DNA of 63,922 nt, filler included, from Nemertoderma westbladi (lineage: Eukaryota > Animalia > Xenacoelomorpha), in assembly GCA_032718475.1 (NCBI GenBank). It is 3 parts of 3 records of this genome, joined end to end, with 100 filler letters (N's around TTAATTAATTAA, not from the genome) between each part and the next. Parts side by side here need not be neighbours in the genome. Positions count along the whole stretch, not along the records: positions 1 to 23,996 come from JAUCBJ010003293.1; 2 more parts are not named here. The stretch is one strand, 5' to 3'. The notes below the pieces were generated by a model. The model was not told the origin of the DNA, did not search any database, and saw only the letters and a program-made list of their open reading frames with translations. Numbering within the stretch: the first letter of the stretch is position 1; the number at the start of each line of letters is the position of its first letter. The position numbers and the translations under genes are program-made. This document shows positions 1,829 through 54,800 of this stretch, piece by piece.

Positions 1829-2892
1829 GGGTATAACTTTTCGCCGTATCCGTATCCGTATCCGTATCCGTATGCATTTGCCGTATCCGTATGTACATAC
1901 GCGTATGTGCGTATGTAATGGATTCCTATGGAGAATAATCCGTATGTGATTTTAAAGATTAGGCATTGCGGACCAGTAAGAAGTGCACAGCACACATGCA
2001 GACTGAAGACAGCTGTAGGCCTACTTAAAGCTAAGTGATTTAAAGAGTGTGGCTGCCGCTACCTTATGTCAAATAAACAATGCAGGACAGGTCCAGGATG
2101 AGTGACAGCCGGTGTCCGCCAGCCCAGGGATGCGCCACAGCGCTTGTTTTATTGTACTAACTGACACCTGGACCGCTGGACGCCCGGTTGGATTTAGATA
2201 ATTACTGACACTCGTGTTGCACTCGCAGACACGTGGTTTGACTAACTGGAACGAGGTTGGACTTGTAAGCACTTGGTTGCATATGCATATGGTTAACTAT
2301 AACTGGCCCGAAACAGCGAAAGTTAAGCTATTATATTTGTTAATAAATTCACAAAGAAGGACAAACTGACACGACGGTTTTTAATATCTGTGCGAATGTT
2401 TATTCCCTTAGCATTCTCATTGCTGCTTCTATCAGTCTATACAGTATTATACATGTTAGTGCCATATACTGTAGGAACCAACAACATTCTATAGCCAGGT
2501 TGGCGGAAAAACAGTTCAAAAATAAATCACGGTTGGTTAGTTTTCCAAGCGGCGTCAAGAAGAGTTATGGTTAATAGGTACTGCACTGCTGGCGCATCCT
2601 GGGGCTGGCGGACACCGGCTGTCACCCATCCTGACCTGTCCTGCATTGTTATTTGACAAAAGGTAGCAGCAGCCACACTCTTTAAATCACTAAGCTTTAA
2701 GTAGGCCTACCTCGCTCTTCTCAGTCTGCATGTGTGCTGTGCACTTCTTACTGGTCCGCAATGCCTAATCTATAAAATCACATACGGATTATTATCCATA
2801 GGAATCCATTACATATGCACATACGCGTATGTGCATACGGATACGGCGAATGTATACGAATACGGATACGGATACGGCGAAAAGATATACCC
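1829..2892. mobile_element. Non-autonomous Mutator/MULE-like foldback element (MITE)
   Basis: ~310-bp imperfect terminal inverted repeats starting GGGTATA and ending TATACCC; exact 9-bp flanking duplication GACGTTGGT at 1820-1828 and 2893-2901. Confidence 0.85.
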
Positions 2893-3894
2893 GACGTTGG
2901 TGACATTAAATTGAAGAGTCATTGAAGAAATCTATTTCCTACAACTCATTTGGTGTATAACGTGACTGCAATCAACTGATTATTTACAGGAAAATTAAAT
3001 TAAATAGCACTGCGAGGTGTACGGTGTACGGTGCACGGTGTATTACTGAGAAGAAAAAAATTTGATGAAAACTCTAAAAATTGTTGTAAATATAAATACC
3101 TCAATAAATTATTTAAAGGTTTAATTAATTACCGAATACAATTATTATTTGATAACAACTTGCTTCAATTCTCGACATTTAGCATACTCTTATTACCACC
3201 ATATTGTATACTATATTTTGTATTTAATTGTCAGAATTTTTATTTTCGCTTTCAAACTTCTTTTATGAACGTTTAATAAAACGTGACACAATTATTAATA
3301 AAGTTTCGCCTGAATTTTCTTCACTATATTTTACTTCAATTGTATTTTTATATTATGAGAACTCATTTACTACGGGAAGCGAACTTAGTTCCTATTGCAG
3401 TCAGCGTAATAATATTCTTCTAATTATTGCGAACTTTGTCCCAATTTTGTTATACGAACAAGCGACAAAAGGGTGGTATAGAGTGATTCAATTCGCTGGT
3501 TTAGGTACAAAGTTCGCTAAAATACGAACAAAGTTCGTATGTATTAAAAAAAATAGCATCTTAACATTTTAGAAGCCAAGTTCGCGCTCCCTAATAAAGT
3601 ACCCATTCTAGTTGGGGGGCCCCGAGGCTAATGCAGTAATATCGCGAATTGGGGGTGTTGCCCGGCAGTCCTCCAAGTCTGTATGCTGTATCTACGCATA
3701 AAGACAACCTAACGTGGATGAGTGAACATTAGTAATCAACTCATTAATAGTTTGGGACCTTCGAACTGAAGTATTACGTGCTTACAAAGCCCAATAACGT
3801 AGTGCCACCTTCCCCTAGGATACAAGCCAATTATTTTAGAACTAAATAATTGAATGTGCCCGTAGTGTTAGAACATTATTTTTACTATGTTCGT

Positions 3895-4213
3895 GATATT
3901 TTACTAGTGAGGTAAATAAATGATCGATATTTTACTAGTGAGGTAAATAAATGATCGATATTTTACTAGTGAGGTAAATAAATGATCGATATTTTACTAG
4001 TGAGGTAAATAAATGATCGATATTTTACTAGTGAGGTAAATAAATGATCGATATTTTACTAGTGAGGTAAATAAATGATCGATATTTTACTAGTGAGGTA
4101 AATAAATGATCGATATTTTACTAGTGAGGTAAATAAATGATCGATATTTTACTAGTGAGGTAAATAAATGATCGATATTTTACTAGTGAGGTAAATAAAT
4201 GATCGATATTTTA
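3895..4213. repeat. 31-bp minisatellite, ~10 copies
   Basis: Unit GATATTTTACTAGTGAGGTAAATAAATGATC repeated near-perfectly. Confidence 0.95.
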
Positions 4214-8833: not shown

Positions 8834-9385
8834 ACACCATGATGACCCGTAATATAGTGTCATTTTCTGATGACACGGACCCCCCCCCCCCCCCCCCCCA
8901 GATTTCTCTACAAACCTTTATCATATTGCTTGAAATTAGAAACACAACAATTTCCACTCACCGTCGATGTCCACATGAAGCCGGAATTTTCGATTTTTTG
9001 ATTAAGCGTTTTAAAAAAAATGTAATTTGCGAAATCGAATACTGTGTATTGTAGCCATATTCTCATTAGTCGTATCATTAGAAAGCTTGCGTTGCAAGGA
9101 TTCGAAATATGTAACAATGTTTGAATTTCGTTGAGAAACAGCTGGGATATTGGCGTTCAAAGATTGCAAGAATTATCGTTCTCTATATTTATTTAATGAG
9201 TAGGTGGGCAACAACGATAAAGGTGAAAATCGAAAATTCCGGCTTCATGGTAACAACCACAGTGAGCTGAACTAGTTGTGTTTCAAATTTCAAGCAATAT
9301 GATAAAGATTTGTAGAAAAATCTGGGGGGGGGGGGGGGGGGGTCCGTATTATCAGAAACTGACACCATATTACGGGTCATGGTGT
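8834..9385. mobile_element. MITE with ~165-bp imperfect terminal inverted repeats
   Basis: Left arm TACACCATG..ACCCGTAATAT..polyC..GCCGGAATTTTCGATTT is mirrored at ~9225-9385; superfamily not determined. Confidence 0.75.
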
Positions 9386-9663
9386 AATTAATTATAATAT
9401 AATGCCTGACAGTTATACAGTATATCTAATTATGATTTACTAAGATCTCGGTGACTTTCTACTGTACACTGCTAGCATTATGTGACGTATAATGAAGGTC
9501 AAATACTACCGTATCGATGTCAACTTACATAATTAGTTTTTTGCGAATTTAGGGAGGAAATTGTATCTCACCATTTCATAATAACTACTAAAATATGACG
9601 ACAATTTCCTATCTTGTAACATTATTTCTGCCACAATCAATATATCAAAAATGGGGTACTTAC

Positions 9664-12794: not shown

Positions 12795-14253
12795 TTGCTA
12801 CGGTCTGTACGTTAGGTTGCTACGGTCTGTACATATTGACTATAGGTTGCTACGGTCTGTACATTAGGTTGCTACGGTCTGTACTTATTGACTATAGGTT
12901 GCTACGGTCTGTACGTATTGACTATAGGTTGCTACGGTCTGTACATATTGACTATAGGTTGCTACGGTCAGTGCGTTAGGTTGCTACGGTCTGTACGTAT
13001 TGACTATAGGTTGCTACGGTCTGTACGTTAGGTTGCTACGGTTTGTACGTTAGGTTGCTTCGGTCTGTACGTTAGGTTGCTACGGTCTGTACATATTGAC
13101 TATAGGTTGCTACGGTCTGTACATTAGGTTGCTACGGTCTGTACTTATTGACTATAGGTTGCTACGGTCTGTACGTATTGACTATAGGTTGCTACGGTCT
13201 GTACGTATTGACTATAGGTTGCTACGGTCTGTACGTATTGACTATAGGTTGCTACGGTCTGTACGTATTGACTATAGGTTGCTACGGTCTGTACGTAAGG
13301 TTGCTACGGTCTATACCTATTGACTATAGGTTGCTACGGTCTGTACGTATTGACTATAGGTTGCTACGGTCTGTACATATTGACTATAGGTTGCTACGGT
13401 CAGTGCGTTAGGTTGCTACGGTCTGTACGTATTGACTATAGGTTGCTACGGTCTGTACGTTAGGTTGCTACGGTTTGTACGTTAGGTTGCTTCGGTCTGT
13501 ACGTTAGGTTGCTACGGTCTGTACATATTGACTATAGGTTGCTACGGTCTGTACGTTAGGTTGCTACGGTCTGTACGTATTGACTATAGGTTGCTACGGT
13601 CTGTACGTTAGGTTGCTACGGTCTGTACGTATTGACTATAGGTTGCTACGGTCTGTACGTATTGACTATAGGTTGCTATGGTCTGTACGTTAGGTTGCTA
13701 CGGTCTGTACGTATTGACTATAGGTTGCTACGGTCTGTACGTTAGGTTGCTACGGTCTGTACGTATTGACTATAGGTTGCTACGGTCTGTACGTATTGAC
13801 CATAGGTTGCTACGGTCTGTACCTATTGACTGTAGGTTGCTACGGTCTGTACGTATTGACTATAGGTTGCTACGGTCAGTGCGTTAGGTTGCTACGGTCT
13901 GTACGTATTGACTATAGGTTGCTACGGTCTGTACGTTAGGTTGCTACGGTCTGTACGTATTGACTATAGGTTGCTACGGTCTGTACGTATTGACTATAGG
14001 TTGCTACGGTCTGTACGTTAGGTTGCTACGGTCTGTACGTTAGGTTGCTACGGTCTGTACGTATTGACTATAGGTTGCTACGGTCTGTACGTTAGGTTGC
14101 TACGGTCTGTACGTATTGACTATAGGTTGCTACGGTCTGTACGTATTGACCATAGGTTGCTACGGTCTGTACCTATTGACTGTAGGTTGCTACGGTCTGT
14201 ACGTATTGACTATAGGTTGCTACGGTCTGTACGTTAGGTTACTACGGTCTGTA
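12795..14253. repeat. 22/30-bp two-monomer satellite, left part
   Basis: Core GGTTGCTACGGTCTGTACGT followed by either TA (22-mer) or ATTGACTATA (30-mer). Confidence 0.97.
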
Positions 14254-14962
14254 AGTAGTAATGGTTACCCCTCTTTGGCGACAGTTTGGTCCCACTTCGC
14301 ACCTTGGGTGTTAAGTAGGTCATTAATTAATTAAACAATTAATTAATTGGTCGATTAAACAATTAATTAATTGTTTAATCAATCGATTTGTATCAAATAA
14401 TGTTGCCAAAGGCAATTTAATTTGATACAAATCAATCAGATAGGGGATGCGCAATGAATAAATTGTACTACAGCAAATGAAATATACAATACTATAGGCA
14501 CTGTGCAATACAATATACAGTACATTTGTATTATTTTTGCCGTACAGTAGGTAAAGATAGAAAGAAATATAAAGAAGCGAGCGGGGCCCAAAACATAAAT
14601 TACCCTTTCAAGAAAATAAAATGGACCAGTTTGGCCCTGGTTCAGTCCCTCAATAATCTGCGGCCGTTTGGGCTCTTATTAGACGTAGCATGACTAATCC
14701 CACCATTGAATCCTATGTTGAGTTAAACCATTGTCAATTCGCCTAAGAAAATTATAATAAACATCTGGTCTTGCAATAGATTATTCTTCTTTCACAACTC
14801 CATTCTAGCCTCCCTCTATAATAGCCCCCATTCACCGCATTCCCATTCATTCTCTAATTTTATTTTTAAAAGTTTTATTTATTTTCATAAAAGTTTTATT
14901 TATTTAAAATTTTGTAAAATCATTCAGCGAAAATTCATAATATCAATTGACATTGCTATATA

Positions 14963-15904
14963 ATGCCTAGTTATGAAAGATGTTTGGTTTGTAATAAAGA
15001 AATGAGACAAGACAATCTATCTCGTCATATGGAAAGACATAGAAAGGATAAACTAATGGATCCATTACCAAAGAAATTTAAAAAATCCGAAGATATTTTT
15101 AGTGAAGAAGAAAAGAAAAAGAGAGTTGAGCGTGATATATTAAAGATAAAACAGACAATGGAAAATAAATTTCATAAAGTTATGAATATTTTGAAAGGGA
15201 TACAAAAACAGTTACCCCTAGAAAATGATGAGAATTTGAGTGAGAAAGATGAAGAAGAAGAGGACGATGAGATGGAGAATGAAAATAGTGAGGATCAAGA
15301 TGAAGTTGAAGAGAGTAAGGTTGAGAACGAAGTGAGTGAAGGTCATGAAGATGACGAAGAAAGTGAAGGTCAGGAAGAGGGTGAAGAAAGCGAAGGTCAG
15401 GAAGAGAATGAAGAAAATGAAGAACAGGAAGAGGATGAAGAAAGTGAAGAACAGGAAGAGGATGACGAAAGTGAAGGTCAGAAAGAGGATGAAGAAAGTG
15501 AAGGTCAGGAAAGTGAAGAAGATGATGAAAATGATAATAATAAGGAAATATTGAGACAATTACTTGGAAATAAGAATAAATTGCGGAAAATTATTAAACA
15601 TTTAGAAGAGAATGATGAAAATAAAGAAGAGATATTGAGACAAATATTAGCAAACAAAAATCAAATGCGGAAATTTATTAAACAAATGGAAGAAAACGAG
15701 GAAAATAGAGAAGAGATATTAAGACAGGTTTTGGGAAATAAAAGTAAATTATTGAAAATTAATGAACAATTGAATAAAATTAAGAAACCGTTGGTTAATG
15801 AGGAAGATGAAAGTAAAGAAAATCAACCAGCTTTTACTTATTTTCGAAGACCTATAACATCAAACTCTCGTACAGTATTTGCCCGCGCAGGCGGACGCTA
15901 TTGA
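14963..15904 (+). CDS. Zinc-finger/acidic-tract/coiled-coil protein, left-arm copy (313 aa)
   Basis: Intact ATG-to-stop ORF in AT-rich DNA; CLVC-x11-HMERH finger, basic PKKFKK, long E/D tract, three ~27-aa EILRQ(I/L/V)L(G/A)NK repeats; TATA-like TATAAT ~145 bp upstream. Confidence 0.75.
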   Translation: MPSYERCLVCNKEMRQDNLSRHMERHRKDKLMDPLPKKFKKSEDIFSEEEKKKRVERDILKIKQTMENKFHKVMNILKGIQKQLPLENDENLSEKDEEEEDDEMENENSEDQDEVEESKVENEVSEGHEDDEESEGQEEGEESEGQEENEENEEQEEDEESEEQEEDDESEGQKEDEESEGQESEEDDENDNNKEILRQLLGNKNKLRKIIKHLEENDENKEEILRQILANKNQMRKFIKQMEENEENREEILRQVLGNKSKLLKINEQLNKIKKPLVNEEDESKENQPAFTYFRRPITSNSRTVFARAGGRY

Positions 15905-16282
15905 CATTTGTTTGTTTGAGTTCCTTTCATAATAGTATTAGGACTATTTATCCATAACAATTATATTGGTATTAGGAGTATTTATCCTTAATTATTATTA
16001 GTATTATAAATGTATTTGCCAACAATATTTATTGCTATTAGGTCTATTTATTCAAGAAATTATATGTTTTTTATAATATATTTTGGAAAATTAGCCGACT
16101 AAGTCATAATTTTTAAAACTTTAAATAAGGGTGGAGTTATTTTATAAAGTTAAGAAGAGTGAATCAATGGAGGCAACATGAAGTCTAATCTCTTGCCCTT
16201 TACTCATAAGACCGCACATTAACTCCCAAGGTTGCATACTATCACTATAGCTGGGAGAGTCAAAGCTAGTGTACAGGAATGA

Positions 16283-17121
16283 GGAAGTGAGGGAAGTGAG
16301 GGAGTGAGGGAAGTGAAGGAAGTGATGGAAGTGAGGGAAGTGAGGGAAGTGAGGGAAGTGAGGGAAGTGAGGGAAGTGAAGGAAGTGAGGGAAGTGAGGC
16401 AGTGAGGGAAGTGAGGGAAGTGAGGGAAGTGAGGGAAGTGAGGGAAGTGAGGGAAGTGAGGCAGTGAGGGAAGTGAGGGAATTGAGGGAAGTGAGGGAGT
16501 GAGGGAAGTGAGGGAAGTGAGGGAAGTGAGGGAAGTGAGGGAAGTGAGGGAAGTGAGGGAAGTGAGGCAGTGAGGGAAGTTAGGCAGTGAGGGAAGTGAG
16601 GGAAGTGAGAGAAGTGAGGGAAGTGAGGGAAGTGAGGGAAGTGAGGGAAGTGAGGGAAGTGAGGGAAGTGAGGGAAGTGAGGGAAGTGAGGGAAGTGAGG
16701 GAAGTGAGGGAAGTGAGGGAAGTGAGGGAAGTGAGGGGAGTGAGGGAAGTGAGGGAAGTGAGGGGAGTGAGGGAAGTGAGGGAAGTGAGGGAAGTGAGGG
16801 AAGTGAGGGAAGTGAGGGAAGTGAGGGAAGTGAGGCAGTGAGGGAAGTGAGGCAGTGAGGGAAGTGAGGGAAGTGAGAGAAGTGAGGGAAGTGAGGGAAG
16901 TGAGGGAGTGAGGGAAGTGAGGGAAGTGAGGGAGTGAGGGAAGTGTACAAATCTGGGAAGTGAGGGAATGAGGGAAGTGAGGGAAGTGAGGGAAGTGAGG
17001 GAAGTGAGGGAGTGAGGGAAGTGAGGGAAGTGAGGGAAGTGAGGGAAGTGAGGGAAGTGAGGGAAGTGAGGGAGTGAGGGAGGGAGGGAGTGAGGGAATG
17101 AGGGAGGGAGTGAGGGAAGTG
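16283..17121. repeat. 9-bp purine-rich minisatellite (GAGGGAAGT)n, ~90 copies
   Basis: Directly visible; occasional 8-bp variants. Confidence 0.95.
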
Positions 17122-17147
17122 ACGTCACTTATATATTTACACTTATT

Positions 17148-17820
17148 TGCAGATGGATTCGCCTCCTTTGAAAGTCACAGCTAATGGTCTAATACATATC
17201 TGCCAAGTTTCAGCTTAAACGGATTGAAAGCAAAGAAATGGGAGGGCATTTAATGTTTAGACATGTGGCCCTCTAGCGGGAGACCATTGCACTGATGGTG
17301 TCTGAAAGTCTCTCAAAAATCTCAACTTTTGCTCATATTGATACCTACAAATTTTCAACTTGGCAGCTTTAAATCCGACAAAGTTATTAGCATGTCAAAA
17401 TCGTAACGACGACAACGATTTCACTTTCAGACCTTTGGCCCTTTAGCGGCAGACTGGAGAACTGCAGATGGATTCGCCTCCTTTGAAAGTCACAGCTAAT
17501 GGTCTAATACATATCTGCCAAGTTTCAGCTTAAACGGATTAAAAGCAAAGAAATGGGAGGGCATTTAATGTTTAGACATGTGGCCCTCTAGCGGGAGACC
17601 ATTGCACTGATGGTGTCTGAAAGTCTCTCAAAAATCTCAACTTTTGCTCATATTGATACCTACAAATTTTCAACTTGGCAGCTTTAAATCCGACAAAGTT
17701 ATTAGCATGTCAAAATCGTAACGACGACGACGACGACAACGACGACGACGACGACGACAACTATTTGCATAAATTGACCCACCCCCTAACAGTGTCAATT
17801 CGCTAAGGCTCCGCCAACTT
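17148..17820 (+). repeat. ~315-bp tandem duplication followed by (ACG)n and a stem-loop; Helentron/HINE-like fragment
   Basis: GCAGATGGATTCGCCTCC... recurs at ~17149 and ~17465; (GAC)n tract, then AATTGAC...GTCAATT inverted repeat. Confidence 0.55.
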
Positions 17821-18018
17821 CATAATATAATATAACTGTAAATATATTATAAAAAACATATAATTTCTTGAATAAATAGACCTAATAGCAATAAATATTG
17901 TTGGCAAATACATTTATAATACTAATAATAATTAAGGATAAATACTCCTAATACCAATATAATTGTTATGGATAAATAGTCCTAATACTATTATGAAAGG
18001 AACTCAAACAAACAAATG

Positions 18019-18987
18019 TCAATAGCGTCCGCCTGCGCGGGCAAATACTGTACGAGAGTTTGCTGTCATAGGTCTTCGAAAATAAGTAAAAGCTGGTTGA
18101 TTTTCTTTACTTTCATCTTCCTCATTAACCAACGGTTTCTTAATTTTATTCAATTGTTCATTAATTTTCAATAATTTACTTTTATTTCCCAAAACCTGTC
18201 TTAATATCTCTTCTCTATTTTCCTCGTTTTCTTCCATTTGTTTAATAAATTTCCGCATTTGATTTTTGTTTCCTAATATTTGTCTCAATATCTCTTCTTT
18301 ATTTTCATCATTCTCTTCTAAATGTTTAATAATTTTCCGCAATTTATTCTTATTTCCAAGTAATTGTCTCAATATTTCCTTATTATTATCATTTTCATCA
18401 TCTTCTTCACTTTCCTGACCTTCACTTTCTTCGTCCTCTTCCTGACCTTCACTTTCTTCATCCTCTTTCTGACCTTCACTTTCGTCATCCTCTTCCTGTT
18501 CTTCACTTTCTTCATCCTCTTCCTGTTCTTCATTTTCTTCATTCTCTTCCTGACCTTCGCTTTCTTCACCCTCTTCCTGACCTTCACTTTCTTCGTCATC
18601 TTCATGACCTTCACTCACTTCGTTCTCAACCTCACTCTCTTCAACTTCATCTTGATCCTCACTATTTTCATTCTCCATCTCATCGTCCTCTTCTTCTTCA
18701 TCTTTCTCACTCAAATTCTCATCATTTTCTAGGGGTAACTGTTTTTGTATCCCTTTCAAAATATTCATAACTTTATGAAATTTATTTTCCATTGTCTGTT
18801 TTATCTTTAATATATCACGCTCAACTCTCTTTTTCTTTTCTTCTTCACTAAAAATATCTTCGGATTTTTTAAATTTCTTTGGTAATGGATCCATTAGTTT
18901 ATCCTTTCTATGTCTTTCCATATGACGAGATAGATTGTCTTGTCTCATTTCTTTATTACAAACCAAACATCTTTCATAACTAGGCAT
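18019..18987 (-). CDS. Zinc-finger/acidic-tract/coiled-coil protein, right-arm copy (322 aa)
   Basis: Inverted copy of 14963-15904 with an in-frame 27-bp insertion and four amino-acid differences (K/E, A/G, I/M, S/A). Confidence 0.75.
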   Translation of the reverse strand: MPSYERCLVCNKEMRQDNLSRHMERHRKDKLMDPLPKKFKKSEDIFSEEEKKKRVERDILKIKQTMENKFHKVMNILKGIQKQLPLENDENLSEKDEEEEDDEMENENSEDQDEVEESEVENEVSEGHEDDEESEGQEEGEESEGQEENEENEEQEEDEESEEQEEDDESEGQKEDEESEGQEEDEESEGQESEEDDENDNNKEILRQLLGNKNKLRKIIKHLEENDENKEEILRQILGNKNQMRKFIKQMEENEENREEILRQVLGNKSKLLKINEQLNKIKKPLVNEEDESKENQPAFTYFRRPMTANSRTVFARAGGRY

Positions 18988-19698
18988 TATATAGCAATGT
19001 CAATTGATATTATGAATTTTCGCTGAATGATTTTACAAAATTTTAAATAAATAAAACTTTTATGAAAATAAATAAAACTTTTAAAAATAAAATTAGAGAA
19101 TGAATGGGAATGCGGTGAATGGGGGCTATTATAGAGGGAGGCTAGAATGGAGTTGTGAAAGAAGAATAATCTATTCGCAAGACCAGATGTTTATTATAAT
19201 TTTCTTAGGCGAATTGACAATGGTTTAACTCAACATAGGATTCAATGGTGGGATTAGTCATGCTACGTCTAATAAGAGCCCAAACGGCCGCAGATTATTG
19301 AGGGACTGAACCAGGGCCAAACTGGTCCATTTTATTTTCTTGAAAGGGTAATTTATGTTTTGGGCCCCGCTCGCTTCTTTATATTTCTTTCTATCTTTAC
19401 CTACTGTACGGCAAAAATAATACAAATGTACTGTATATTGTATTGCACAGTGCCTATAGTATTGTATATTTCATTTGCTGTAGTACAATTTATTCATTGC
19501 GCATCCCCTATCTGATTGATTTGTATCAAATTAAATTGCCTTTGGCAACATTATTTGATACAAATCGATTGATTAAACAATTAATTAATTGTTTAATCGA
19601 CCAATTAATTAATTGTTTAATTAATTAATGACCTACTTAACACCCAAGGTGCGAAGTGGGACCAAACTGTCGCCAAAGAGGGGTAAACCATTACTACT

Positions 19699-22600
19699 TC
19701 TGTACGTATTGACTATAGGTTGCTACGGTCTGTACGTATTGACCATAGGTTGCTACGGTCTGTACCTATTGACTGTAGGTTGCTACTGTCTGTACGTATT
19801 GACTATAGGTTGCTACGGTCTGTACGTATTGACTATAGGTTGCTACGGTCTGTACGTTAGGTTGCTACGGTCTGTACGTATTGGCTATAGGTTGCTACGG
19901 TCTGTACGTTAGGTTGCTACGGTCTGTACGTATTGACTATAGGTTGCTACGGTCTGTACGTTAGGTTGCTACGGTCTGTACGTATTGACTATAGGTTGCT
20001 ACGGTATGTACCTATTGACTATAGGTTGCTACGGTCTGTACTTATTGACTATAGGTTGCTACGGTCTGTACGTATTGACTATAGGTTGCTACGGTCTGTA
20101 CGTATTGACTATAGGTTGCTACGGTCTGTACGTTAGGTTGCTACGGTCTGTACGTATTGACTATAGGTTGCTACGGTCTGTACGTATTGACCATAGGTTG
20201 CTACGGTCTGTGCCTATTGACTGTAGGTTGCTACGGTCTGTACGTATTGACTATAGGTTGCTACGGTCAGTACGTTAGGTTGCTACGGTCTGTACGTATT
20301 GACTATAGGTTGCTACGGTCTATACGTTAGGTTGCTACGGTCTGTACGTATTGACTATAGGTTGCTACGGTATGTACGTTAGGTTGCTACGGTATGTACG
20401 TTAGGTTGCTACGGTCTGTACGTATTGACTATAGGTTGCTACGGTATGTACCTATTGACTATAGGTTGCTACGGTCTGTGCGTTAGGTTGCTACGGTCTG
20501 TACGTATTGACTATAGGTTGCTACGGTTTGTACGTATTGACTATAGGTTGCTACGGTCTGTACCTATTGACTATAGGTTGATACGGTCTGTACGTTAGGT
20601 TGCTACGGTCTGTACGTATTGACTATAGGTTGCTACGGTCTGTACGTATTGACTATAGGTTGCTACGGTCTGTACGCATTGATTTTAGGTTGCTACGGTC
20701 TGTATGTTAGGTTGCTACGGTCTGTACGCATTGACTATAGGTTGCTACGGTCTGTACGTTAGGTTGCTACGGTCTGTACGTATTGACTATAGGTTGCTAC
20801 GGTCTTTACGTTAGGTTGCTACGGTCTGTACGTATTGACTATAGGTTGCTACGGTATGTACCTATTGACTATAGGTTGCTACGGTCTGTACTTATTGACT
20901 ATAGGTTGCTACGGTCTGTACGTATTGACTATAGGTTGCTACGGTCTGTACGTATTGACTATAGGTTGCTACGGTCTGTACGTTAGGTTGCTACGGTCTG
21001 TACGTATTGACTATAGGTTGCTACGGTCTGTACGTATTGACCATAGGTTGCTACGGTCTGTACCTATTGACTGTAGGTTGCTACGGTCTGTACGTATTGA
21101 CTATAGGTTGCTACGGTCAGTACGTTAGGTTGCTACGGTCTGTACGTATTGACTATAGGTTGCTACGGTCTGTACGTATTGACTATAGGTTGCTACGGTC
21201 TGTACGTTAGGTTGCTACGGTCTGTACGTTAGGTTGCTACGGTCTGTACGTTAGGTTGCTACGGTCTGTACGTTAGGTTGCCACGGTCTGTACATATTGA
21301 CTATAGGTCGCTACGGTCTGTACGTTAGGTTGCTACGGTCTGTACGTATTGACTATAGGTTGCTACGGTCTGTACGTTAGGTTGCTACGGTCTGTACGTA
21401 TTGACTATAGGTTGCTACGGTCTGTACGTATTGACTATAGGTTGCTACGGTCTGTACGTATTGACTATAGGTTGCTACGGTCTGTACCTATTGACTATAG
21501 GTTGCTACGGTCTGTACGTTAGGTTGCTACGGTCTGTACGTATTGACTATAGGTTGCTACGGTCTGTACGTATTGACTATAGGTTGCTACGGTCTGTACG
21601 CATTGATTTTAGGTTGCTACGGTCTGTATGTTAGGTTGCTACGGTCTGTACGCATTGACTATAGGTTGCTACGGTCTGTACGTTAGGTTGCTACGGTCTG
21701 TACGTATTGACTATAGGTTGCTACGGTCTGTACGTTAGGTTGCTACGGTCTGTACGTATTGACTATAGGTTGCTACGGTCTGTACGTATTGACTATAGGT
21801 TGCTACGGTCTGTACCTATTGACTATAGGTTGCTACGGTCTGTACGTTATGTTGCTACGGTCTGTACGTATTGACTATAGGTTGCTACGGTCTGTACGTA
21901 TTGACTATAGGTTGCTACGGTCTGTACGCATTGATTTTAGGTTGCTACGGTCTGTATGTTAGGTTGCTACGGTCTGTACGCATTGACTATAGGTTGCTAC
22001 GGTCTGTACGTATTGACCATAGGTTGCTACGGTCTGTACCTATTGACTGTAGGTTGCTACGGTCTGTACGTATTGACTATAGGTTGCTACGGTCTGTACG
22101 TATTGACTATATGTTGCTACGGTCTGTACGTATTGACTATAGGTTGCTACGGTCTGTACGTATTGACTATAGGTTGCTACGGTCTGTACCTATTGACTAT
22201 AGGTTGCTACGGTCTGTACGTTAGGTTGCTACGGTCTGTACGTATTGACTATAGGTTGCTACGGTCTGTACGTATTGACTATAGGTTGCTACGGTCTGTA
22301 CGTTAGGTTGCTACGGTCTGTACGTATTGACTATAGGTTGCTACGGTCTGTACGTATTGACCATAGGTTGCTACGGTCTGTACCTATTGACTGTAGGTTG
22401 CTACGGTCTGTACGTATTGACTATAGGTTGCTACGGTCTGTACGTATTGACTATAGGTTGCTACGGTCTGTACGTATTGACTATAGGTTGCTACGGTCTG
22501 TACGTATTGACTATAGGTTGCTACGGTCTGTACCTATTGACTATAGGTTGCTACGGTCTGTACGTTAGGTTGCTACGGTCTGTACGTATTGACTATAGGT

Positions 22601-23996
22601 TGATACGGTCTGTACGTATTGACTATAGGTTGCTACGGTCTGTACCTATTGACTATAAGTTGCTACGGTCTGTACGTTAGGTTGCTACGGTCTGTACGTA
22701 TTGACTATAGGTTGCTACGGTCTGTACGTATTGACTATAGGTTGCTACGGTCTGTACGTATTGACTATAGGTTGCTACGGTCTGTACGCATTGATTTTAG
22801 GTTGCTACGGTCTGTATGTTAGGTTGCTACGGTCTGTACGCATTGACTATAGGTTGCTACGGTCTGTACGTATTGACCATAGGTTGCTACGGTCTGTACC
22901 TATTGACTGTAGGTTGCTACGGTCTGTACGTATTGACTATAGGTTGCTACGGTCTGTACGTTAGGTTGCTACGGTCTGTACGTATTGACTATAGGTTGCT
23001 ACGGTCTGTACGTATTGACTATAGGTTGCTACGGTCTGTACCTATTGACTATAGGTTGCTACGGTCTGTACGTTAGGTTGCTACGGTCTGTACGTATTGA
23101 CTATAGGTTGCTACGGTCTGTACGTATTGACTATAGGTTGCTACGGTCTGTACCTATTGACTATAAGTTGCTACGGTCTGTACGTTAGGTTGCTACGGTC
23201 TGTACGTATTGACTATAGGTTGCTACGGTCTGTACGTATTGACTATAGGTTGCTACGGTCTGTACGTATTGACTATAGGTTGCTACGGTCTGTACGCATT
23301 GATTTTAGGTTGCTACGGTCTGTATGTTAGGTTGCTACGGTCTGTACGCATTGACTATAGGTTGCTACGGTCTGTACGTTAGGTTGCTACGGTCTGTACG
23401 TATTGACTATAGGTTGCTACGGTCTGTACGTTAGGTTGCTACGGTCTGTACGTATTGACTATAGGTTGCTACGGTCTGTACGTATTGACTATAGGTTGCT
23501 ACGGTCTGTACGTATTGACTATAGGTTGCTACGGTCTGTACCTATTGACTATAGGTTGCTACGGTCTGTACGTTATGTTGCTACGGTCTGTACGTATTGA
23601 CTATAGGTTGCTACGGTCTGTACGTATTGACTATAGGTTGCTACGGTCTGTACGCATTGATTTTAGGTTGCTACGGTCTGTATGTTAGGTTGCTACGGTC
23701 TGTACGCATTGACTATAGGTTGCTACGGTCTGTACGTATTGACCATAGGTTGCTACGGTCTGTACGTATTGACTATAGGTTGCTACGGTCTGTACGTATT
23801 GACTATAGGTTGCTACGGTCTGTACGTATTGACTATAGGTTGCTACGGTCTGTACGTTAGGTTGCTACGGTCTGTACGTATTGACTATAGGTTGCTACGG
23901 TCTGTACTATTGACTATAGGTTGCTACGGTCTGTACCTATTGACTATAAGTTGCTACGGTCTGTACGTTAGGTTGCTACGGTCTGTACGCATTGAC
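19699..23996. repeat. 22/30-bp two-monomer satellite, right part, running into the gap
   Basis: Same monomers and orientation as 12795-14253; 850-bp higher-order duplication (19933 vs 20783). Confidence 0.97.
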
Positions 23997-24096
23997 NNNN
24001 NNNNNNNNNNNNNNNNNNNNNNNNNNNNNNNNNNNNNNNNTTAATTAATTAANNNNNNNNNNNNNNNNNNNNNNNNNNNNNNNNNNNNNNNNNNNN
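23997..24096. other. Artificial contig linker (N44-TTAATTAATTAA-N44)
   Basis: Exactly 100 nt with an all-frame stop 12-mer at 24041-24052. Confidence 0.95.
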
Positions 24097-32560: not shown

Positions 32561-35017
32561 GCCAACTACAAAACAACAGAACACAGAACAAAACTGTACT
32601 GTAAGGTACAGTGTATAATTATATATTTTGTTTAGAGATACATTGTGTAGCCCACGCCTACGGCCTACATGTAGGCCAACATAATGAAATATATTGTAAA
32701 TTGACACCGCTGTGCGTGTCTTGTATTCAACCTTGGCTTCTATCAAAATAACAGGAACAAACTGCACGCAGAGAGGAGCTTCTCCACGGTTTATTAGTTG
32801 TGTGGCATTCCTTTTGAAATTACAGTAAAACGGGAGCAGTTCCACTCTGACGCGAGGAGGAGTGGCGAGTTGGGCTCGTCGTCCCATAAACTATGTACAG
32901 TACAATGAATATATCGCCGACTTAATGTCAATGATAATGATATGAATAGCAATTCAATGTCAATGATGTACTTACTATGTATATAATGATATCCTATACT
33001 CTTGATTTTGGATTTTTGTCTGGTAAGTGTTCTAAAACATTAGTAGATATTATTTATTAATATCTAGCAAGTTTACACTATATAATTTATATAATTACTT
33101 ACTACAATAGAATTACTAGCTAACACAAAATCAAAATTACTAGCTACCCTCTTACATTCAGAGGTTAAATATAAACCTCTTGATACTGTAAAAGCCATTT
33201 TCATGTGAAAAAATTGGTCAAAAAGTGGCTACCCAATACCTAAAAATTTGAGACACTTAGAAAATTTACTTTTTGACTTTTAGTGTCCCAGAAGGTTTTC
33301 TACACACAAAGTGGCGCATAGTAGGCCAGTTCAAATATCGGATTCGGATTTGGATTGAGATTCGGTTCTGAGGTATCAATAATACATACTGTAATATACT
33401 AGAACGCCATCAAGATGGCTTTAAACGAACCTGTCTTAAATAGACTCCAAGAAACAGATGGGATTGGAAGTTGCAAACCAAGAATGACTTGCATCAACCA
33501 AAAAACTGCACATGTAATACACATTCGCCTAGGCAAACAAATCATAATCACAATTACTGCGATGTGTGAAATATTATCATTATCCGCAACCTGGGTAACG
33601 GCCCCAAAAAGCAGTGTATCTGCATTATATACAGCAGTTCTCCGGTTTTGTTAGTTTAATCGACAGCTGTTGTAAACGTCTCAGATATACAAAACCTACT
33701 AAGCCTTTGCATTACAATTGAGCTTAGCCTGAGTTGATGACAGTATTATAACGATGACAATAGGCCCTATAGATATATACGATATATAAATGATGTACTG
33801 CTTGACATTAGACTAACTGACTGAATACAGATAGAACAATAATTAACGATACAATTAATATACGTAACTCCAATTGTGTGTGCTAATTCGGTATGTGTCA
33901 CCCAATTGGGAAATTTTACAAACTCACCTATAATATATATATAATATATATACATATATATGGATAACATGTCCCTGACAAGCCTTCACTTTTGCGTCAT
34001 GTTCGAAATTGCTACAGTATAACACTAAATTACACAACATTACATTATCAACTACAATGGAATTCCAATATTAACTACTGAATATTATCTACCGATTTGT
34101 TTTTGTTTCATCAAATTTCGCCCAATAGAAAAAAATATATATTTTGAAGTCTACTTCAGTACTCAGAAATGCAGGAAAAACGAAAAAAATTACGAAAAAA
34201 ATTCCAGTAGCCGACAAATATTATCCGCAGTACATGCCGGGTGGAACTGGGTTTGACAATTCGCGGTAATTTACGAGATTTTACAGTGACTCGTTTGTTT
34301 ATTGAGATTCGCATTTTATGACGTACAGTAGACCCTGCGCAGGATCCCGTTTGTCGTAGAGAGATCTGGTAGCTTCTGCAGTAAGAATCTAACAGGGACT
34401 GCCATTGCTGCACAGTGTATTGGTAGGTAGTTCTCCACATCTACCACCAATAGCAGGTTGTATTTCCACCCCACCTACTGTATATTATATTAGTCAAAGT
34501 AGTCAAACGTAGACCACGACAACAATGAATTGGAAAAGAGGATTCGTTTCACCAAAATGGTTCTCCATCTGTTGTTGACACCAACGTTGTGGAACCATCA
34601 TATGATATTTTGATTGGATTTTATCTCATGAAATTATATTTACTTTAATCTTTGATGGATATATATATATAGAATTAATTAGCAAATTAATAAAACAAAT
34701 AAATATATATTAAAATTATTGCACAACGTATTTATTATTAAAACGATTTTATCTAATCGGGGATCCCTTAGGCCTCAATGAGGGAGGCAGAGTCAAAGGT
34801 CTTGAAGAAGTCCACAAATATTATATAATCAAGTTAATAAAGATTATTTTATTGTATTAATTAATACATTATAATTACACTGTACTGTGTGCTAATAAAT
34901 GTTGCAGCTCGTCCTTCTCTACTACATGTATGTATACAGTATAATATCAAAGCTAATTGCAGAAGTGTTGAATTAATTAATTATGTCTACCAATAACAAG
35001 ATTAGTATCTCCTAACA

Positions 35018-35793
35018 ATGGGTGAAGCCTATAGCATTCCAGCAGCCGACCCAAACCTCCAGTACATGTCAATCAACCTACGAGCACCGGATACGTTTAC
35101 AATAATCCACGGAGGAGGCCGCGAGACCGAGGCATTCCGCCAGGCCATCGCGACGGCATGGCCTGAAGGAATACAGGAGGAACACAAACTGCATGGCTGT
35201 TTCCACATTAAACTCCGGGGTAACCCGATGTTCGACGGCCTATTTGCATTTGCTACCGACGCCGTGCGATTTTGCCGCCTCGCTTGTAACATATTCCAGA
35301 ACTTGTGGGACATCGGCTGGGAGTTCTACCTCTCCTCAGATCTAACACGTTGTGACCAGTGCACCTGGTTCTTTAAAAGGCGATCTTCGTTGGATCCCTT
35401 AGAGTTTCCTATGTTCTGTTTAGCACCGTATGGCCGCGATAAATTGCGAGTTATCAACGCTCCTGATGATGTTATTGGAGTTATACTGCAGAGCATCGTT
35501 AGCGTTTGGTCCCGCGGGATTCAAAAGCAATATGTTGGGGACGCGGGGGAATATGTGTTTAAATTGAATGGATATCCGTCGCACAACAACGACTACGAGC
35601 AATCTACGGACGCTATACGATTGATTATGGAGATGTTTAGCCAACTGGGTCGCTTTAACTGGACGCTGTACACTGCGACCAACCTCAAAGGAACCTGCGA
35701 CTCCTTCTTCTTCCGACGGGATCCGGAGTTTGTGTTCGATCGCGATGCCGGATGGCTATTCGCTGTTTATTTGAATCGGCAGGATAGACTAAG
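35018..35793 (+). CDS. Uncharacterised four-repeat-domain protein, exon 1
   Basis: Long ORF with two copies of a D-K/R-L-R-x-I-N-A-P...W..GIQ...KL.G.P domain; GT donor at 35794. Confidence 0.8.
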
Positions 35794-37951
35794 GTTCGGT
35801 TGCTAGGGAACCTTGTCCTTGTCTGTCGATCATTTTTGCACGCTCGAACAGGGATCGAACCCAGTACATTCATCTCTAAAAGGGAATCAGACCTAGAACT
35901 GTTTCACATGGTGCATTCATTTTATCCAACAAAAAAAAATTTCCTAGCTACCCAGTTATTTTATAATAATTAAGCAATCAACTAATTATTTGCAATTTTT
36001 GTAATTATTATACTGTATATTATTATCTCTCATTTTTATTATTGTTTAAAACTAAATAATATACATAATATTAAGAAAACAGATAAAATAAAACCGTAAC
36101 TGAGGAGGAGAACACAACCCAGGCTGCATGAGCTCTTACGGGATGTCATAAAATTGTATGTGGGGCAATAAAACACGTTTGTGGGGCCTTCGCGCAGCAC
36201 GAGAGCCTAAATTAGAAAGTGCATTATACTAATCTCTATTAGATATACGAAAACCGTCTTTCCCAAAAAATGTATGAGTGAAGGCGATGCTAACAGTTTG
36301 TGATAAACTAGTTGTAAAAATAGAGATCCATTTCAGTTTGCCCTCACACACTTTAACTGTCATTTGAAAACCTTCTAACTAGGGCTATTTCCTATTTAAG
36401 TTATAACATTTTCATTTTTAGTTTTACAATACTCTTCTCCTTCATTAGCCTCGTTGCGCTCGTCCTGTTTTGTCTTAAAATAATTTCCCTAAAAGGAGAA
36501 TAACGACCTTTATAATTGTGCAAAGTCTCGAAACTGTGAGAGTAACTGCTGATTTATGGCAGATGGGTACTCGTATCCACTGTAAACCCGTTGCGTTCGT
36601 TCGTTTTTACCAAATTTGAGATTCTTTCTAAACTTTTGTCGAACTACATACGTACCAAGTTTCGTTTAATTTCATCAAGTAATAACGGAGTTATTAGCGA
36701 TCAAATATTTACGACGACGACAGACGACGACGGCACCCGTATGTTAAGGCTTCGCTCACTTCGTGGCTCGCCCCACACTCAAACACAAAATTTAATAAAA
36801 CAACTTGCAGATATGTTAAAATATGGTAAAATTGAGATCACAGATTTTGATTATCAACGATTGAACTTACAATTCGACAAAATATTCCAGTTATCAATCT
36901 AAAGTTCCTGAATATATATTAACTTTATTATGTAGAGTTCTCGTTTCTATTATAAATCCTCGCTTTCACTCGGGTTTTAAAAAGCCTCACATTGCGCTCT
37001 TATAAAGTAGGCCTAGTGAATAACTTACAATTATTAAGTTGTTTCTGGTTGTGGAAGCAGGAAACCCACAGGTCTGTCTGTATTAGACCACTAATTATTT
37101 AAGTCACTAGTAATGCTTTTTTTCTCTTTCATTAGAATTATAATTAGAAAGTAATTAATTTTTAATCTTTTCTAATCTTTGAATCAGGTTCTGATTATTC
37201 AGACTAAAATTACAATTCGGAAAACAAACTTCCTATCGGGAATAAGTCACCAGTTTTAGTTGACCAAATTCAGATATTCTTACGTTGTTTATTGAGTTAG
37301 AACTCGTTTGCAATTAGTACTCGCTTTTCTCGTTGTTTAAACATACCAAATCTTGCAATACTCAATACACAGAACAGTTTAACACATCATAACACGATTG
37401 GGGCCTTCGTGCAGCAAAAGCTGCAAGCCATCTTGCGAACTGTTATAATTATACTTTGGCTAGTTATATATATATATATTTTTTGGTTGGAACTGCGCTA
37501 TCACTATATATATATATATTAAAATCCGGGATGTCCCCGGCGCTATAATATTGCCATAAATAAAATCATTAAAATCGACGCACATAACGCTTAAAATAAT
37601 AGAGTAAGGGCACATAACATCAGAAAGTGGTTAAATTGGTCCTAAAATAATACTATTTCTAAGGCCTATTCTGATATTGGCTTCCGACAATATTTTCGCT
37701 TCCGACAATATTTTGGCATCCGACACACACACTGACACACACACAGACTTTTGGAAAACGGCCATAGTATAATTATAACAGTTCGCTGATGGCTCGCAGT
37801 TTTGACTCGCCCCACAATACACACTGTAACTGTTTAACACAGGAGAACAGCACAGAATAGTTTTATTTTGTCTGCAAATGGACAGAAAGACAAAATGACA
37901 CAAAAGTGTTTATTTACGATGGATGGTTCCCTAGCAACTACTGTAACTCAG

Positions 37952-38750
37952 GTTAATAAACGCACCGGAGCAAATAAAGTTTATTGTCCGAGACGCCATA
38001 AAGATAGGCTGGCCGTGGGGAGAGCCGGGGGAAAATGATAAGTATAAAAGTTGGGAGCTCAAACTGCCTGGCTATCCCTGGTGGGCAACAGGACGGGACG
38101 CGGTAAAGTCTCGTCACACGATCAGTCTCCTACTGAGGCGTCTTCAGTCCCAGGGTTGGCGCGTATACCAGTCGTTGGACATTTCCCGAAAGTACAAAGA
38201 CAAATCCATGTTGATGTTCAAACGAGACGTTCCGTTCGACACTCCGTTCTTCTGTCTGAGTCTCAACGAGACGGATAAGATCGAAGTTATCGACGCTCCG
38301 GACGTTGTCCGGGACAATTTGCGAGGCCTCATTGAGAGGCATTGGACCCCGGGGATACAACGCTTGCTAGTTCGCGAGAATTCCTACGAGTTTAAACTCA
38401 CAGGGAACCCGTGGTCCAGCTCAGACGACGGAGAGCGCGACATGGCTCGTTCGCTGTTGTGTCACGTCCTGCAGGAGTTGGCCGGGTTGCAGTGGGTGCC
38501 GGTCATGTCCGCCGACGTTTGCGCCCAGTACGTGGAGGACGACGGACCGGACTACCCATCGGACTCTCACTCCTGGTGGTTCATGTACTTCCAGAACCCC
38601 CGGGTGGCGGCCGCCGCAGCTGCCGCAGCCGCAAATTACTATCCGTCACTTAGTTACGGGTGGTACGGGATGACATTATCCGATGCCCCCTCTGTGCCCC
38701 CGCTGGAGGGGGCATTCAGTGAGTACCAAGGCCTAGCAAAAATTAATTGA
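37952..38750 (+). CDS. Uncharacterised four-repeat-domain protein, exon 2 (spliced total 524 aa)
   Basis: CAG acceptor at 37949-37951; in-frame join gives DRLRLINAP; two further domain copies (KLPGYPW, KLTGNPW); Ala/Pro/Tyr-rich tail. Confidence 0.8.
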
Positions 38751-41793: not shown

Positions 41794-43211
41794 TAATGTA
41801 TAAAATACATTATTTCTACATTATTTATGACATTATTTTTAACGGAATAAGCCACTTACAAACCATTTTGTTATTAAATCACCTTTGGCTTGGAACAATA
41901 AAGCTATTATCTATCGTTATTTATATCTAACCCATCGCCCATGTCATAAATATTCATTCCAGAACATATATTTCCTTTAACATTGGGTGAAGGTGAAACA
42001 GTCAGCTCGTAGTAGCAGAAACAAGTAGAAACATAGTAAAAGTATAGTAAACATGAGTTGATTATATTGGTTGTGTGGCAACTGGAGTAGGAGTAGCCGG
42101 CTGGGTGGGTATTGGGCAACCCCATGTGTGGGCCTTCCATCCAATGCTAACATGTATTGCAACTGTACAGTACAATGTTAAGAATGCCAGTGAAACTAAA
42201 TATGAGGGCCCTTAGTAGTCACAGGAGCGCAGCCAATATCGTAAATATTCATTCCAGAACATGTATTTATTTAACATGACGTGGTATATGCAGTAGGACA
42301 GACAAGGAAACACATTGTATATTGAAGGTGAATTTATTATATTGGATTGGCTGTCTGACTCGACGGTTGAGGTATCCCAGTCAGCGTAGGCCTAGGCCTA
42401 TACAGTACAATAGGGCTTCCCTCTAATAATGGTAACACAATGCTATATATTATACTATAGTAGTTGTTACTTTTCATGGCTTGCGTTTATGGGCTTTTTA
42501 ATCAGTAGTATTTAGTATTGTAACTGCAACAACTGTGTTGTTAATAATATTTATTATAATTGTATATATTTCATGTATTTGCGGCTATTAAATTTTACTA
42601 CTTTAATTTTTTATTTAATTATTACTTAAACTAGTTTTAATTTATTAATTGGCTATTTTAATTTCTACATAAAATATCAATATATAAAAAGTTAAAAAAA
42701 AGTGTAAATAAAAAAGTTTCCAAAAGTTATCATTAATTTGTTTTGCCAATTTACATTATTGCAGGTTTTGTTACATTTTGTTTTATAGTTTCGGTTTGTA
42801 ATTTTTCACTTTGTCGCACAAACTTAAATTTGTAATAAATTAATATTGATTATTAATATATAATAATAAATAATTATATATAAATATATTAATTTGTATT
42901 AAATTTGTTTTTGACAGTTGACAGTTAACTGAATTTGAGACTAACAAACAATCACGTATTAGTAATATCGAATGCACGATATATCGAATACCTCATGGCT
43001 CCTCCAATTTCGTGCCTTATTGCCACGCAGCCATTATTATCTGATACATATCTGACTACCGGTACTGCATATTAATTTGTAATTGTTCATCTCTCAATCT
43101 TACCATAGACAGATCACTGATTGAAAGCTACTGTTCAATTATTTCAGAATATTACTGCGTGTTCTGCCGCGCTGCTACATACGCTACCGTACCTGGCTGC
43201 AATACAGCAAT

Positions 43212-54074: not shown

Positions 54075-54174
54075 NNNNNNNNNNNNNNNNNNNNNNNNNN
54101 NNNNNNNNNNNNNNNNNNTTAATTAATTAANNNNNNNNNNNNNNNNNNNNNNNNNNNNNNNNNNNNNNNNNNNN
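54075..54174. other. Artificial contig linker (N44-TTAATTAATTAA-N44)
   Basis: Same 100-nt design as 23997-24096. Confidence 0.95.
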
Positions 54175-54690: not shown

Positions 54691-54800
54691 ATCCGTCAGT
54701 TTCTGTGCCCTACTCTACATTTGTTATTTAAACATTATAAGTTCAGTTTAATATTTTGTAGTTTATTTTGGATTAGATGATTAGTACTTTATTAATTCAC

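What the first reader, a model, noticed from the sequence alone, without database searches (positions are those of the whole stretch)
14248..19704. Miniature Maverick/Polinton-like element whose giant inverted arms each carry an intact gene
Seen: a 5445-bp element with AGTAGT...ACTACT ends, a perfect 6-bp TSD, ~1.83-kb near-identical arms, two convergent copies of one ORF and a 1.75-kb non-coding core. Known: Mavericks have AG...CT simple-repeat termini, 6-bp TSDs, TIRs usually under ~1 kb, and encode pPolB, integrase and capsid proteins. Inference: a non-autonomous satellite or defective-interfering (copy-back-like) derivative mobilised in trans by a helper Maverick/adintovirus, keeping only the origins and one doubled regulatory gene. 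Alternatively it is a one-off internal deletion of an element with unusually long TIRs.
Basis: partly seen in the sequence, partly recalled or inferred. Interest (0 to 1): 0.85.

Follow-up and report, generated by a model that had tools for sequence, protein, structure and literature searches.

The report
Scarred mirror-image mini-Maverick transposon
This 5.4-kb insertion with Maverick-type ends and two intact, mirror-image copies of one gene is real, but much of its middle is a captured piece of an unrelated repeat, so it is likely a damaged copy of a many-copy, helper-dependent, almost fully palindromic offshoot of these virus-like transposons.

Summary
Observation confirmed: 5445 bp (14254-19698), AGTAGT//ACTACT ends, a true 6-bp target duplication in a host satellite, paired arms of 1830/1859 bp differing at 7 sites, and two intact convergent ORFs (C2H2 finger, acidic tract, coiled repeats). 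It is not a fold-back artefact. Contigs of four public runs show a many-variant family, but the 1.75-kb 'core' is not a designed core: relatives run unbranched across the left arm's inner end into it, and its right 0.7 kb is a truncated piece of a far deeper, unrelated repeat whose junction to the right arm was not seen. A 14-bp palindrome ends the central 9-bp array. Best reading (0.5): a snap-back, nearly fully palindromic, non-autonomous Maverick derivative (~5.7 kb) whose centre broke and was patched. Rival (0.3): internal deletion of a full Maverick with gene-bearing TIRs of 2 kb or more. No helper could be sought (no genome held). Non-autonomous Polintons and ~2-kb gene-bearing TIRs are in print; this scan's earlier notes report palindromic Polintons and mini-Mavericks in other genomes. 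New variant of a known kind; interest 0.45.

The parts
14248..14253 (+). left copy of the 6-bp target-site duplication, in a 30-bp host satellite
14254..16083 (+). left arm, the part that has a partner; begins AGTAGT; AT-rich perfect palindromes at 14323-14380 (likely origin/protein-binding region, inferred)
14963..15904 (+). ORF, 313 aa: N-terminal C2H2-type finger (6-26), helix 48-83, acidic tract (66 D/E in residues 86-195, 27-nt repeats), 28-aa repeats predicted as one long helix (187-283)
16084..16282 (+). continuation of the family's arm that has no partner on the right in this copy
   Evidence: cover in all 4 runs, contigs 16022-16269 (X4) and 15996-16205 (X5) cross 16083; loose ends
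16283..17122 (+). 9-bp minisatellite, about 95 units, one orientation only
17117..17130 (.). 14-bp perfect palindrome at the end of the array; candidate fold-back centre 17123|17124, or snap-back filler of a repair event
   Evidence: chance 0.5% with no loop, 3% with loops up to 20 nt
17148..17821 (.). piece of an unrelated very abundant repeat: two 315-bp-period units (271 bp, 99.3% alike), (ACG)n, cut short at 17821 where other copies go on
   Evidence: 17419-17821 laid directly; 17148-17418 assigned by identity
17822..17839 (.). 18-nt AT-rich filler with a 9-nt inverted match to the adjoining arm
   Evidence: 257 of 5000 shuffles reach 9 nt: weak
17840..19698 (-). right arm, cut short at its inner end relative to the family; ends ACTACT
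18019..18987 (-). second copy of the ORF, 322 aa (one more 9-aa acidic unit)
19699..19704 (+). right copy of the 6-bp target-site duplication

Best explanation
The element is a real insertion with Maverick-type ends and a 6-bp target duplication, and it is likely one damaged copy of a many-copy, helper-dependent family that arose as a snap-back (copy-back) product of a Maverick and was almost wholly palindromic. Shown: ends, TSD, paired arms, two intact ORFs, no replication or capsid gene, relatives with many variants whose arm runs on past 16083, a foreign repeat in the right part of the middle, a 14-bp palindrome at the array's end. Inferred: (1) a Maverick polymerase copying from one end switched template at the 9-bp array and copied back, giving about 2 x 2.87 kb, so that one end-proximal accessory gene was doubled passively; (2) both ends keep the origin and integrase sites, so a helper's protein-primed polymerase and integrase would copy and insert it in trans, the displaced strand folding into a hairpin that remakes an origin; (3) in the chromosome the spacer-less centre broke, about 1.03 kb of the right half was lost and 0.7 kb of an abundant repeat plus short fillers was patched in, leaving a 1756-bp spacer that would stabilise the arms; (4) the protein is likely a nucleic-acid- or chromatin-binding accessory factor (one finger, acidic tract, coiled oligomerisation repeats) of the parent element, not needed for this copy's insertion.
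For: Ends and TSD equal the commonest vertebrate Maverick motif 5'-(AGT)2//(ACT)2-3' with 6-bp TSD (PMC8097293). Family: 2755, 734, 99 and 64 contigs of runs X1, X2, X4, X5 lie on 14240-16290, in all likeness bands, with variant termini and one listed contig that enters the terminus from another flank. Arm longer than 1.83 kb: 2 of the 32 listed pieces cross 16083 unbroken (X4, X5), depth in X4 is 38.6 just inside and 35.2 across, and none of the 24 listed loose-end rows lies at 16083; the 4 of 20 listed loose-end rows at 17840/17852 all read the mirror of the left sequence, none reads this window's junction; bin depths show no X4 or X5 contig on 17833-17851. Foreign patch: 17419-17821 is far deeper than the arm (X4 contigs 1742 and 1540 against 86 and 39), and 34 (X1) and 7 (X4) contigs go on differently behind 17821. 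Centre: perfect 14-bp palindrome exactly at the array end, reached by 0.5% of 20000 random joins. Long spacer-less palindromes break, and spacers stabilise them (PMC7999016 passages). Gene: no stop among 16 and 10 listed in-frame changes; 11 of 12 listed indel rows lie outside the ORF and the twelfth is 3 nt.
Against: The centre itself (16290-17419) was never laid on reads, so no second copy with a mirrored array or with this centre was seen. The 7-nt mirrored stub could equally be snap-back filler from repair (PMC2943611 passages), and the other junction shows a similar 9-nt inverted match. The runs differ from the window at many fixed sites (best share of words 0.58), so they are another population or species; 248 and 535 loose-end rows were not shown, and contigs drop rare branches. 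No helper was found in any collection searched. Selection on the ORF is weak: 6 of 12 family-level changes are synonymous (p 0.007 against all changes, 0.19 against transitions only; 4 sites where the two arms differ were set aside), 9 of 10 in the C-terminal tail are non-synonymous, all 4 inter-arm substitutions are non-synonymous, and two shallow X1 contigs skip parts of the ORF. The protein has no relative beyond the finger.
Confidence: 0.5

Rival explanations
1. A full-size Maverick with TIRs of 2 kb or more that include the ORF integrated here (or at a donor site) and lost its whole coding interior in one deletion, from the 9-bp array to 17840, patched by a captured repeat and templated fillers. 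It is a relic, not a separate mini-family.
For: Same read evidence for a longer arm and a foreign patch. ~2-kb TIRs with duplicated genes exist in butterfly polintons (10.1101/2025.02.07.637071 section 12); 96% of vertebrate Maverick loci are degraded (PMC8097293). Snap-back end joining makes short inverted repeats at junctions (PMC2943611); both junctions here have short local repeats (252 and 257 of 5000 shuffles).
Against: Needs TIRs above the vertebrate maximum of 1447 bp. The deepest single arm contigs in X1 and X2 (about 2400-3950) are some 100 times the shallowest listed contigs (12-30), more like an abundant non-autonomous family, though the tool warns that depth is no copy number. The stub is a loop-less mirror of the array end, exactly where a fold-back centre would be.
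Confidence: 0.3
2. One reading: the 5445-bp form with this very middle is itself the mobile satellite, present at many sites in the window's own genome.
For: Arms 99.8% alike by substitutions and a perfect TSD mean a young insertion; a 1.75-kb spacer would make the element stable; the public runs are not the window's own strain, so their lack of the junction does not exclude it.
Against: The junction 17822-17839 was in none of the listed rows of 4 runs, and X4 and X5 have no cover there; the captured repeat is cut short and bordered by filler, as in a single repair scar; no other copy in the 63.9-kb window.
Confidence: 0.15
3. Assembly or library fold-back artefact, or a foldback element of another transposon superfamily.
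For: Long near-identical inverted arms inside a satellite, 4.3 kb from a gap.
Against: Arms differ at 7 sites; both flanks are satellite in the same orientation and in register around a 6-bp duplication; the ends carry the Maverick motif; independent runs hold the arm with its terminus.
Confidence: 0.05

Closest known systems
Maverick/Polinton elements (adintoviruses) of animals; PMC8097293 (passages and section 7), PMC8502044 (passages)
   Same: 5'-(AGT)2//(ACT)2-3' ends, 6-bp TSD, long TIRs, intronless ORF in the end-proximal 'accessory' position
   Different: 5.4 kb instead of 12.7-24.6 kb; no pPolB, integrase, ATPase, protease or capsid gene; arms at least 2.0 kb in relatives against 46-1447 bp
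Butterfly polintons with ~2-kb gene-bearing TIRs, and polB-less polintons that stayed mobile; 10.1101/2025.02.07.637071 (passages, section 12)
   Same: TIRs of about 2 kb that double the genes inside them; loss of polymerase with continued mobility
   Different: There the doubled genes are hexon and adenain and the elements exceed 12 kb; here one finger/acidic gene and no other gene
Non-autonomous Polintons (Kapitonov and Jurka 2006, recalled, paper not held; Tlr1 'sometimes viewed as non-autonomous polintons', PMC5499653, one passage)
   Same: Polinton ends without the polymerase, dependence on a helper
   Different: I found no printed account of a mirror-symmetric one with a doubled gene in searches (listings and abstract starts only)
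Snap-back/copy-back defective-interfering genomes of viruses (recalled)
   Same: One end region copied back on itself, both termini functional, genes of the interior lost
   Different: Here a germline, integrated, many-variant family in dsDNA; the copy-back origin is inferred from one 14-bp palindrome

Membership tests
Maverick/Polinton (autonomous) | terminal motif (AGT)2//(ACT)2 or (AG)3//(CT)3 | tested here: met
   definition in PMC8097293 section 7
Maverick/Polinton (autonomous) | 6-bp target-site duplication | tested here: met
Maverick/Polinton (autonomous) | terminal inverted repeats of hundreds of bases | tested here: met
   1830/1859 bp here, longer in relatives
Maverick/Polinton (autonomous) | protein-primed PolB and retroviral-type integrase genes | tested here: not met
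   only the doubled ORF and repeat-derived frames
Maverick/Polinton (autonomous) | ATPase, protease, major and minor capsid genes; 12-25 kb | tested here: not met
non-autonomous Maverick derivative family | ends shared with a pPolB/integrase element of the same genome | not testable with these tools
   no genome held; collection scans empty
non-autonomous Maverick derivative family | several copies at different sites | tested here: inconclusive
   many variants of the arm and one other listed flank in public runs; contigs do not give whole copies or TSD pairs
non-autonomous Maverick derivative family | copies share this internal structure | tested here: not met
   left part of the middle is shared, right junction was not seen in the listed rows; the runs are not the window's strain
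snap-back (fully palindromic) derivative | mirror symmetry reaching a central turn-around point | tested here: inconclusive
fold-back assembly artefact | identical arms, mirrored flanks, no TSD | tested here: not met

The most novel reading that the evidence does not exclude
A snap-back defective-interfering genome of a Maverick virus became a germline parasite of its helper: a ~5.7-kb perfect hairpin element, turned around at an enhancer-like 9-bp array, that spread to many copies while keeping a doubled zinc-finger/acidic gene under some selection, perhaps to steer the helper or host chromatin; this copy records how such palindromes are tamed by a centre break and capture of a spacer.
Probability: 0.3. 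Interest if true: 0.7.

Novelty: new variant of a known kind. Interest (0 to 1): 0.45.

Why it matters
How Mavericks replicate has not been shown directly; the model (recalled, Kapitonov and Jurka 2006) has a single strand folding on its TIRs to be copied by a protein-primed polymerase. A natural, many-copy, hairpin-shaped derivative would be the product that this model predicts, would mark the minimal cis sequences for copying and integration, and would show a defective-interfering genome fixed in an animal germline. If instead it is a deletion relic, it is an ordinary broken Maverick and only the long gene-bearing TIR and its orphan gene are of note.

Tried and rejected
Genome-wide search for helper and sister copies: no genome held. 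No RNA holder listed (says nothing on expression); X5 is RNA only by guess and was not used for expression. Homolog searches: whole protein, 0 of 7985 candidates; residues 1-90, 0 of 29; phmmer of the first 92 aa gave 8 hits at E up to 0.001, all on the finger; the finger profile against longer proteins gave 38 hits of 5933 candidates, 34 with Pfam zinc-finger families and 4 unnamed without. The nearest finger (P0014, 16 of 22 identical) is fused to a domain that I recall as the N-terminal part of invertebrate Polinton polymerases; this could not be confirmed (Pfam only finger hits below cut-off; no viral contig; Atlas only unnamed clusters; model pLDDT 33.8, so no fold search was run) and is not used as evidence. 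Atlas search of the ORF: best 0.85, leads only. Viral and metagenome contig scans by protein or terminal pattern: nothing. Rfam: 0 matches. Model of the ORF: pLDDT 63.6, pTM 0.25, three helices and disorder; no fold search run. Earlier notes by sequence or place: none. Papers opened without useful content: 10.1101/2022.07.12.499685, PMC8363768, PMC6431247 (passages only). Rejected: chance TSD from the satellite; fold-back artefact; reading the 1.75-kb middle as one functional core.
Full report
1. The observation. The element runs from AGTAGT at 14254 to ACTACT at 19698, 5445 bp, with TCTGTA on both sides. It lies in a 30-bp host satellite (12813-14234 and 19699-23968) whose unit contains that hexamer, so the duplication was tested: without the element and one hexamer the satellite is in register, and 0 of 5693 cut points of the satellite have the same hexamer on both sides. 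The paired arms (14254-16083, 17840-19698) differ by 4 substitutions, two 1-nt indels and one 27-nt unit. Each holds an intact ORF pointing inwards, 313 and 322 aa. No other copy of any part of the element lies in the window (blastn and tblastn). Differing arms, flanks in one orientation and a true TSD rule against a fold-back artefact. The host is an animal by inference from a rhodopsin-family receptor, IFT52 and Arf in the window. No genome is held.

2. The arm belongs to a many-variant family. Five of 9 listed public runs, from 4 studies, hold words of the arm, the best 0.58 of them; I laid 4 of the 5 holders. On 14240-16290 lay 2755, 734, 99 and 64 contigs (X1, X2, X4, X5), spread over all likeness bands, with cover in 30, 30, 30 and 23 of 30 bins. 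Twelve X1 and 8 X2 contigs carry variant termini, and one listed X4 contig enters the terminus from a different 73-nt flank (24 of 272 loose-end rows shown). The deepest single contigs in X1 and X2 are about 100 times the shallowest, which suggests tens to a hundred or more arm copies; the tool warns that depth is no copy number. Many letters differ from the window in all contigs, so these runs are another population or a close species. Around 14500-14800 relatives skip or leave the arm (joints and loose ends), a lead for where the TIR of other family members may end.

3. The middle is a scar, not a core. (a) Cover goes on past the inner end of the paired arm: an X4 contig spans 16022-16269 and an X5 contig 15996-16205 (2 of 32 listed pieces), X4 depth is 38.6 just inside and 35.2 across, and no listed loose end sits at 16083. 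If the family's TIR ended there with two different neighbours, contigs would break at that point. (b) On 17419-18100, 17419-17821 is far deeper than the arm (X4 contigs 1742 and 1540 against 86 and 39; bins in X1 mostly 700,000-920,000 against 6,000-161,000), joins many other flanks, and 34 X1 and 7 X4 contigs go on behind 17821 with letters that the window lacks. It is an unrelated abundant repeat with 315-bp units and an (ACG)n tract, cut short here; 17148-17418 is assigned to it by 99.3% identity. (c) The 4 listed loose-end rows at the right arm's inner end (of 20 shown, 555 in all) read the mirror of the left-hand continuation; none reads the window's junction, and the depths of bin 17833-17855 in X4 and X5 are fully explained by contigs starting at 17852. 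(d) 17- and 18-nt AT-rich stretches border the captured piece and have short local matches (252 and 257 of 5000 shuffles: weak), as in synthesis-dependent end joining (PMC2943611, passages). (e) The ~95-unit 9-bp array ends in a perfect 14-bp palindrome, 17117-17130; random DNA joined to the array end gives this in 0.5% of 20000 trials, 3% if loops up to 20 nt are allowed; such palindromes occur 21 times in 37.7 kb of other window DNA. With a centre at 17123|17124 the left half is 2870 bp; 1033 bp of it has no partner and 709 bp of other DNA stands in its place.

4. The gene. Pfam sees only a sub-threshold C2H2 finger at residues 6-26 (E 0.28-0.38); phmmer finds 8 proteins at E up to 0.001, all through the finger; no full-length relative was found. 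Residues 86-195 hold 66 D/E; the single-sequence model gives helices 4-31, 48-83 and 187-283 around a disordered acidic tract (pLDDT 63.6). For a real gene in the family: no stop among the 16 (40 of 168 rows shown) and 10 in-frame changes, 11 of 12 listed indel rows outside the ORF and the other one 3 nt, an in-frame 84-nt unit gain in X2 and X4, and 6 of 12 synonymous changes once the 4 inter-arm sites are set aside (p 0.007 against all changes, 0.19 against transitions; 6 of 16, p 0.03, with them). Against: 9 of 10 changes in the C-terminal tail are non-synonymous, two shallow X1 contigs skip parts of the ORF, and all 4 inter-arm substitutions are non-synonymous, as drift after insertion would give. 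I read it as an accessory nucleic-acid- or chromatin-binding protein of the parent Maverick, doubled because it lay in the mirrored part (inference).

5. Mechanism. Most likely (0.5): copy-back of one end of a Maverick at the 9-bp array gave a hairpin-shaped element with two working ends; a helper's protein-primed polymerase and integrase copied and inserted it (6-bp TSD); the spacer-less centre then broke, as long palindromes do (PMC7999016, passages), and was patched with the captured repeat. The ends, TSD, gene content, longer family arm and foreign patch are shown; copy-back origin, helper and order of events are inferred. Rival (0.3): one deletion of the whole interior of a full Maverick with TIRs of 2 kb or more, the 7-nt mirrored stub being repair filler. 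Rival (0.15): the patched 5445-bp form is itself mobile in the window's strain. Artefact or other superfamily: 0.05.

6. Comparison with what is known. The ends and TSD are the commonest vertebrate Maverick type; intact vertebrate elements are 12.7-24.6 kb with TIRs of 46-1447 bp and accessory ORFs flanking the core modules (PMC8097293, passages and section 7; its supplements were not opened). Butterfly polintons have ~2-kb TIRs that double hexon and adenain, and polB-less ones stayed mobile (10.1101/2025.02.07.637071, passages and section 12; its supplements are closed). C. elegans Polinton TIRs are 744 bp (10.1101/2024.01.15.575659, passages); the anole element has 584-bp TIRs and no non-autonomous copies (PMC3014272, passages). 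Non-autonomous Polintons are known (Kapitonov and Jurka 2006, recalled, not held; PMC5499653, one passage). It therefore works like a non-autonomous Maverick derivative but is not an autonomous member (no pPolB, integrase or capsid genes), and the tie to a helper is untested. Searches listed no paper whose title or abstract start describes a palindromic Polinton; most subscription papers and Repbase entries are not covered. This scan's unchecked notes report gene-less palindromic Polinton families and mini-Mavericks in other genomes; they prompted my look for a centre and are not counted as support.

7. Verdict. Real and correctly described in outline; a new variant of a known kind. What remains of interest is the open chance of a gene-bearing snap-back Maverick family, which one search of the assembly and long reads would settle. 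Interest 0.45; novel case probability 0.3, interest 0.7 if true.

Noticed in passing
window 16283-17128: The 9-bp array holds 72 GGAAGT hexamers (ETS-type site, recalled) and ends in an ETS-CRE-like composite (recalled); it could act as an enhancer. Not tested.
   Followed up: partly
window 17148-17821: A very abundant interspersed repeat with 315-bp units and an (ACG)n tract; its build recalls Helentron-associated non-autonomous elements (recalled, not tested).
   Followed up: partly
window 23997-24096 and 54075-54174: Two 100-bp gaps, each N44 + a 12-bp AT linker + N44: the window is likely three joined contigs.
   Followed up: no
window 1829-2892 and about 8834-9388: Two small elements with inverted ends, MITE-like.
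   Followed up: no
window 43125-44588 (+): Whole IFT52 coding sequence in one uninterrupted frame; Arf-family ORF at 318-953 and rhodopsin-family receptor at 54792-55751 are also unbroken frames.
   Followed up: partly
window 46149-47852 (+), 52822-53526 (-), 56463-56987 (-), 58512-59969 (+): Other mobile-element pieces: a reverse-transcriptase plus GIY-YIG-like frame (Penelope-like, recalled; no Pfam hit), an integrase core (PF24764), and LINE-type pieces (PF14529 on the last). No link to the element was tested.
   Followed up: partly
window 35006-35806 and 37947-38750 (+): Two frames of about 266 aa that look like repeats of one domain type and have no Pfam hit.
   Followed up: no
proteins P0023, P0025, P0031: Unnamed proteins join the same type of C2H2 finger to a P-loop helicase-like domain (motif recalled, no Pfam hit for it), suggesting that this finger type is common in small mobile DNA elements.
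   Followed up: partly
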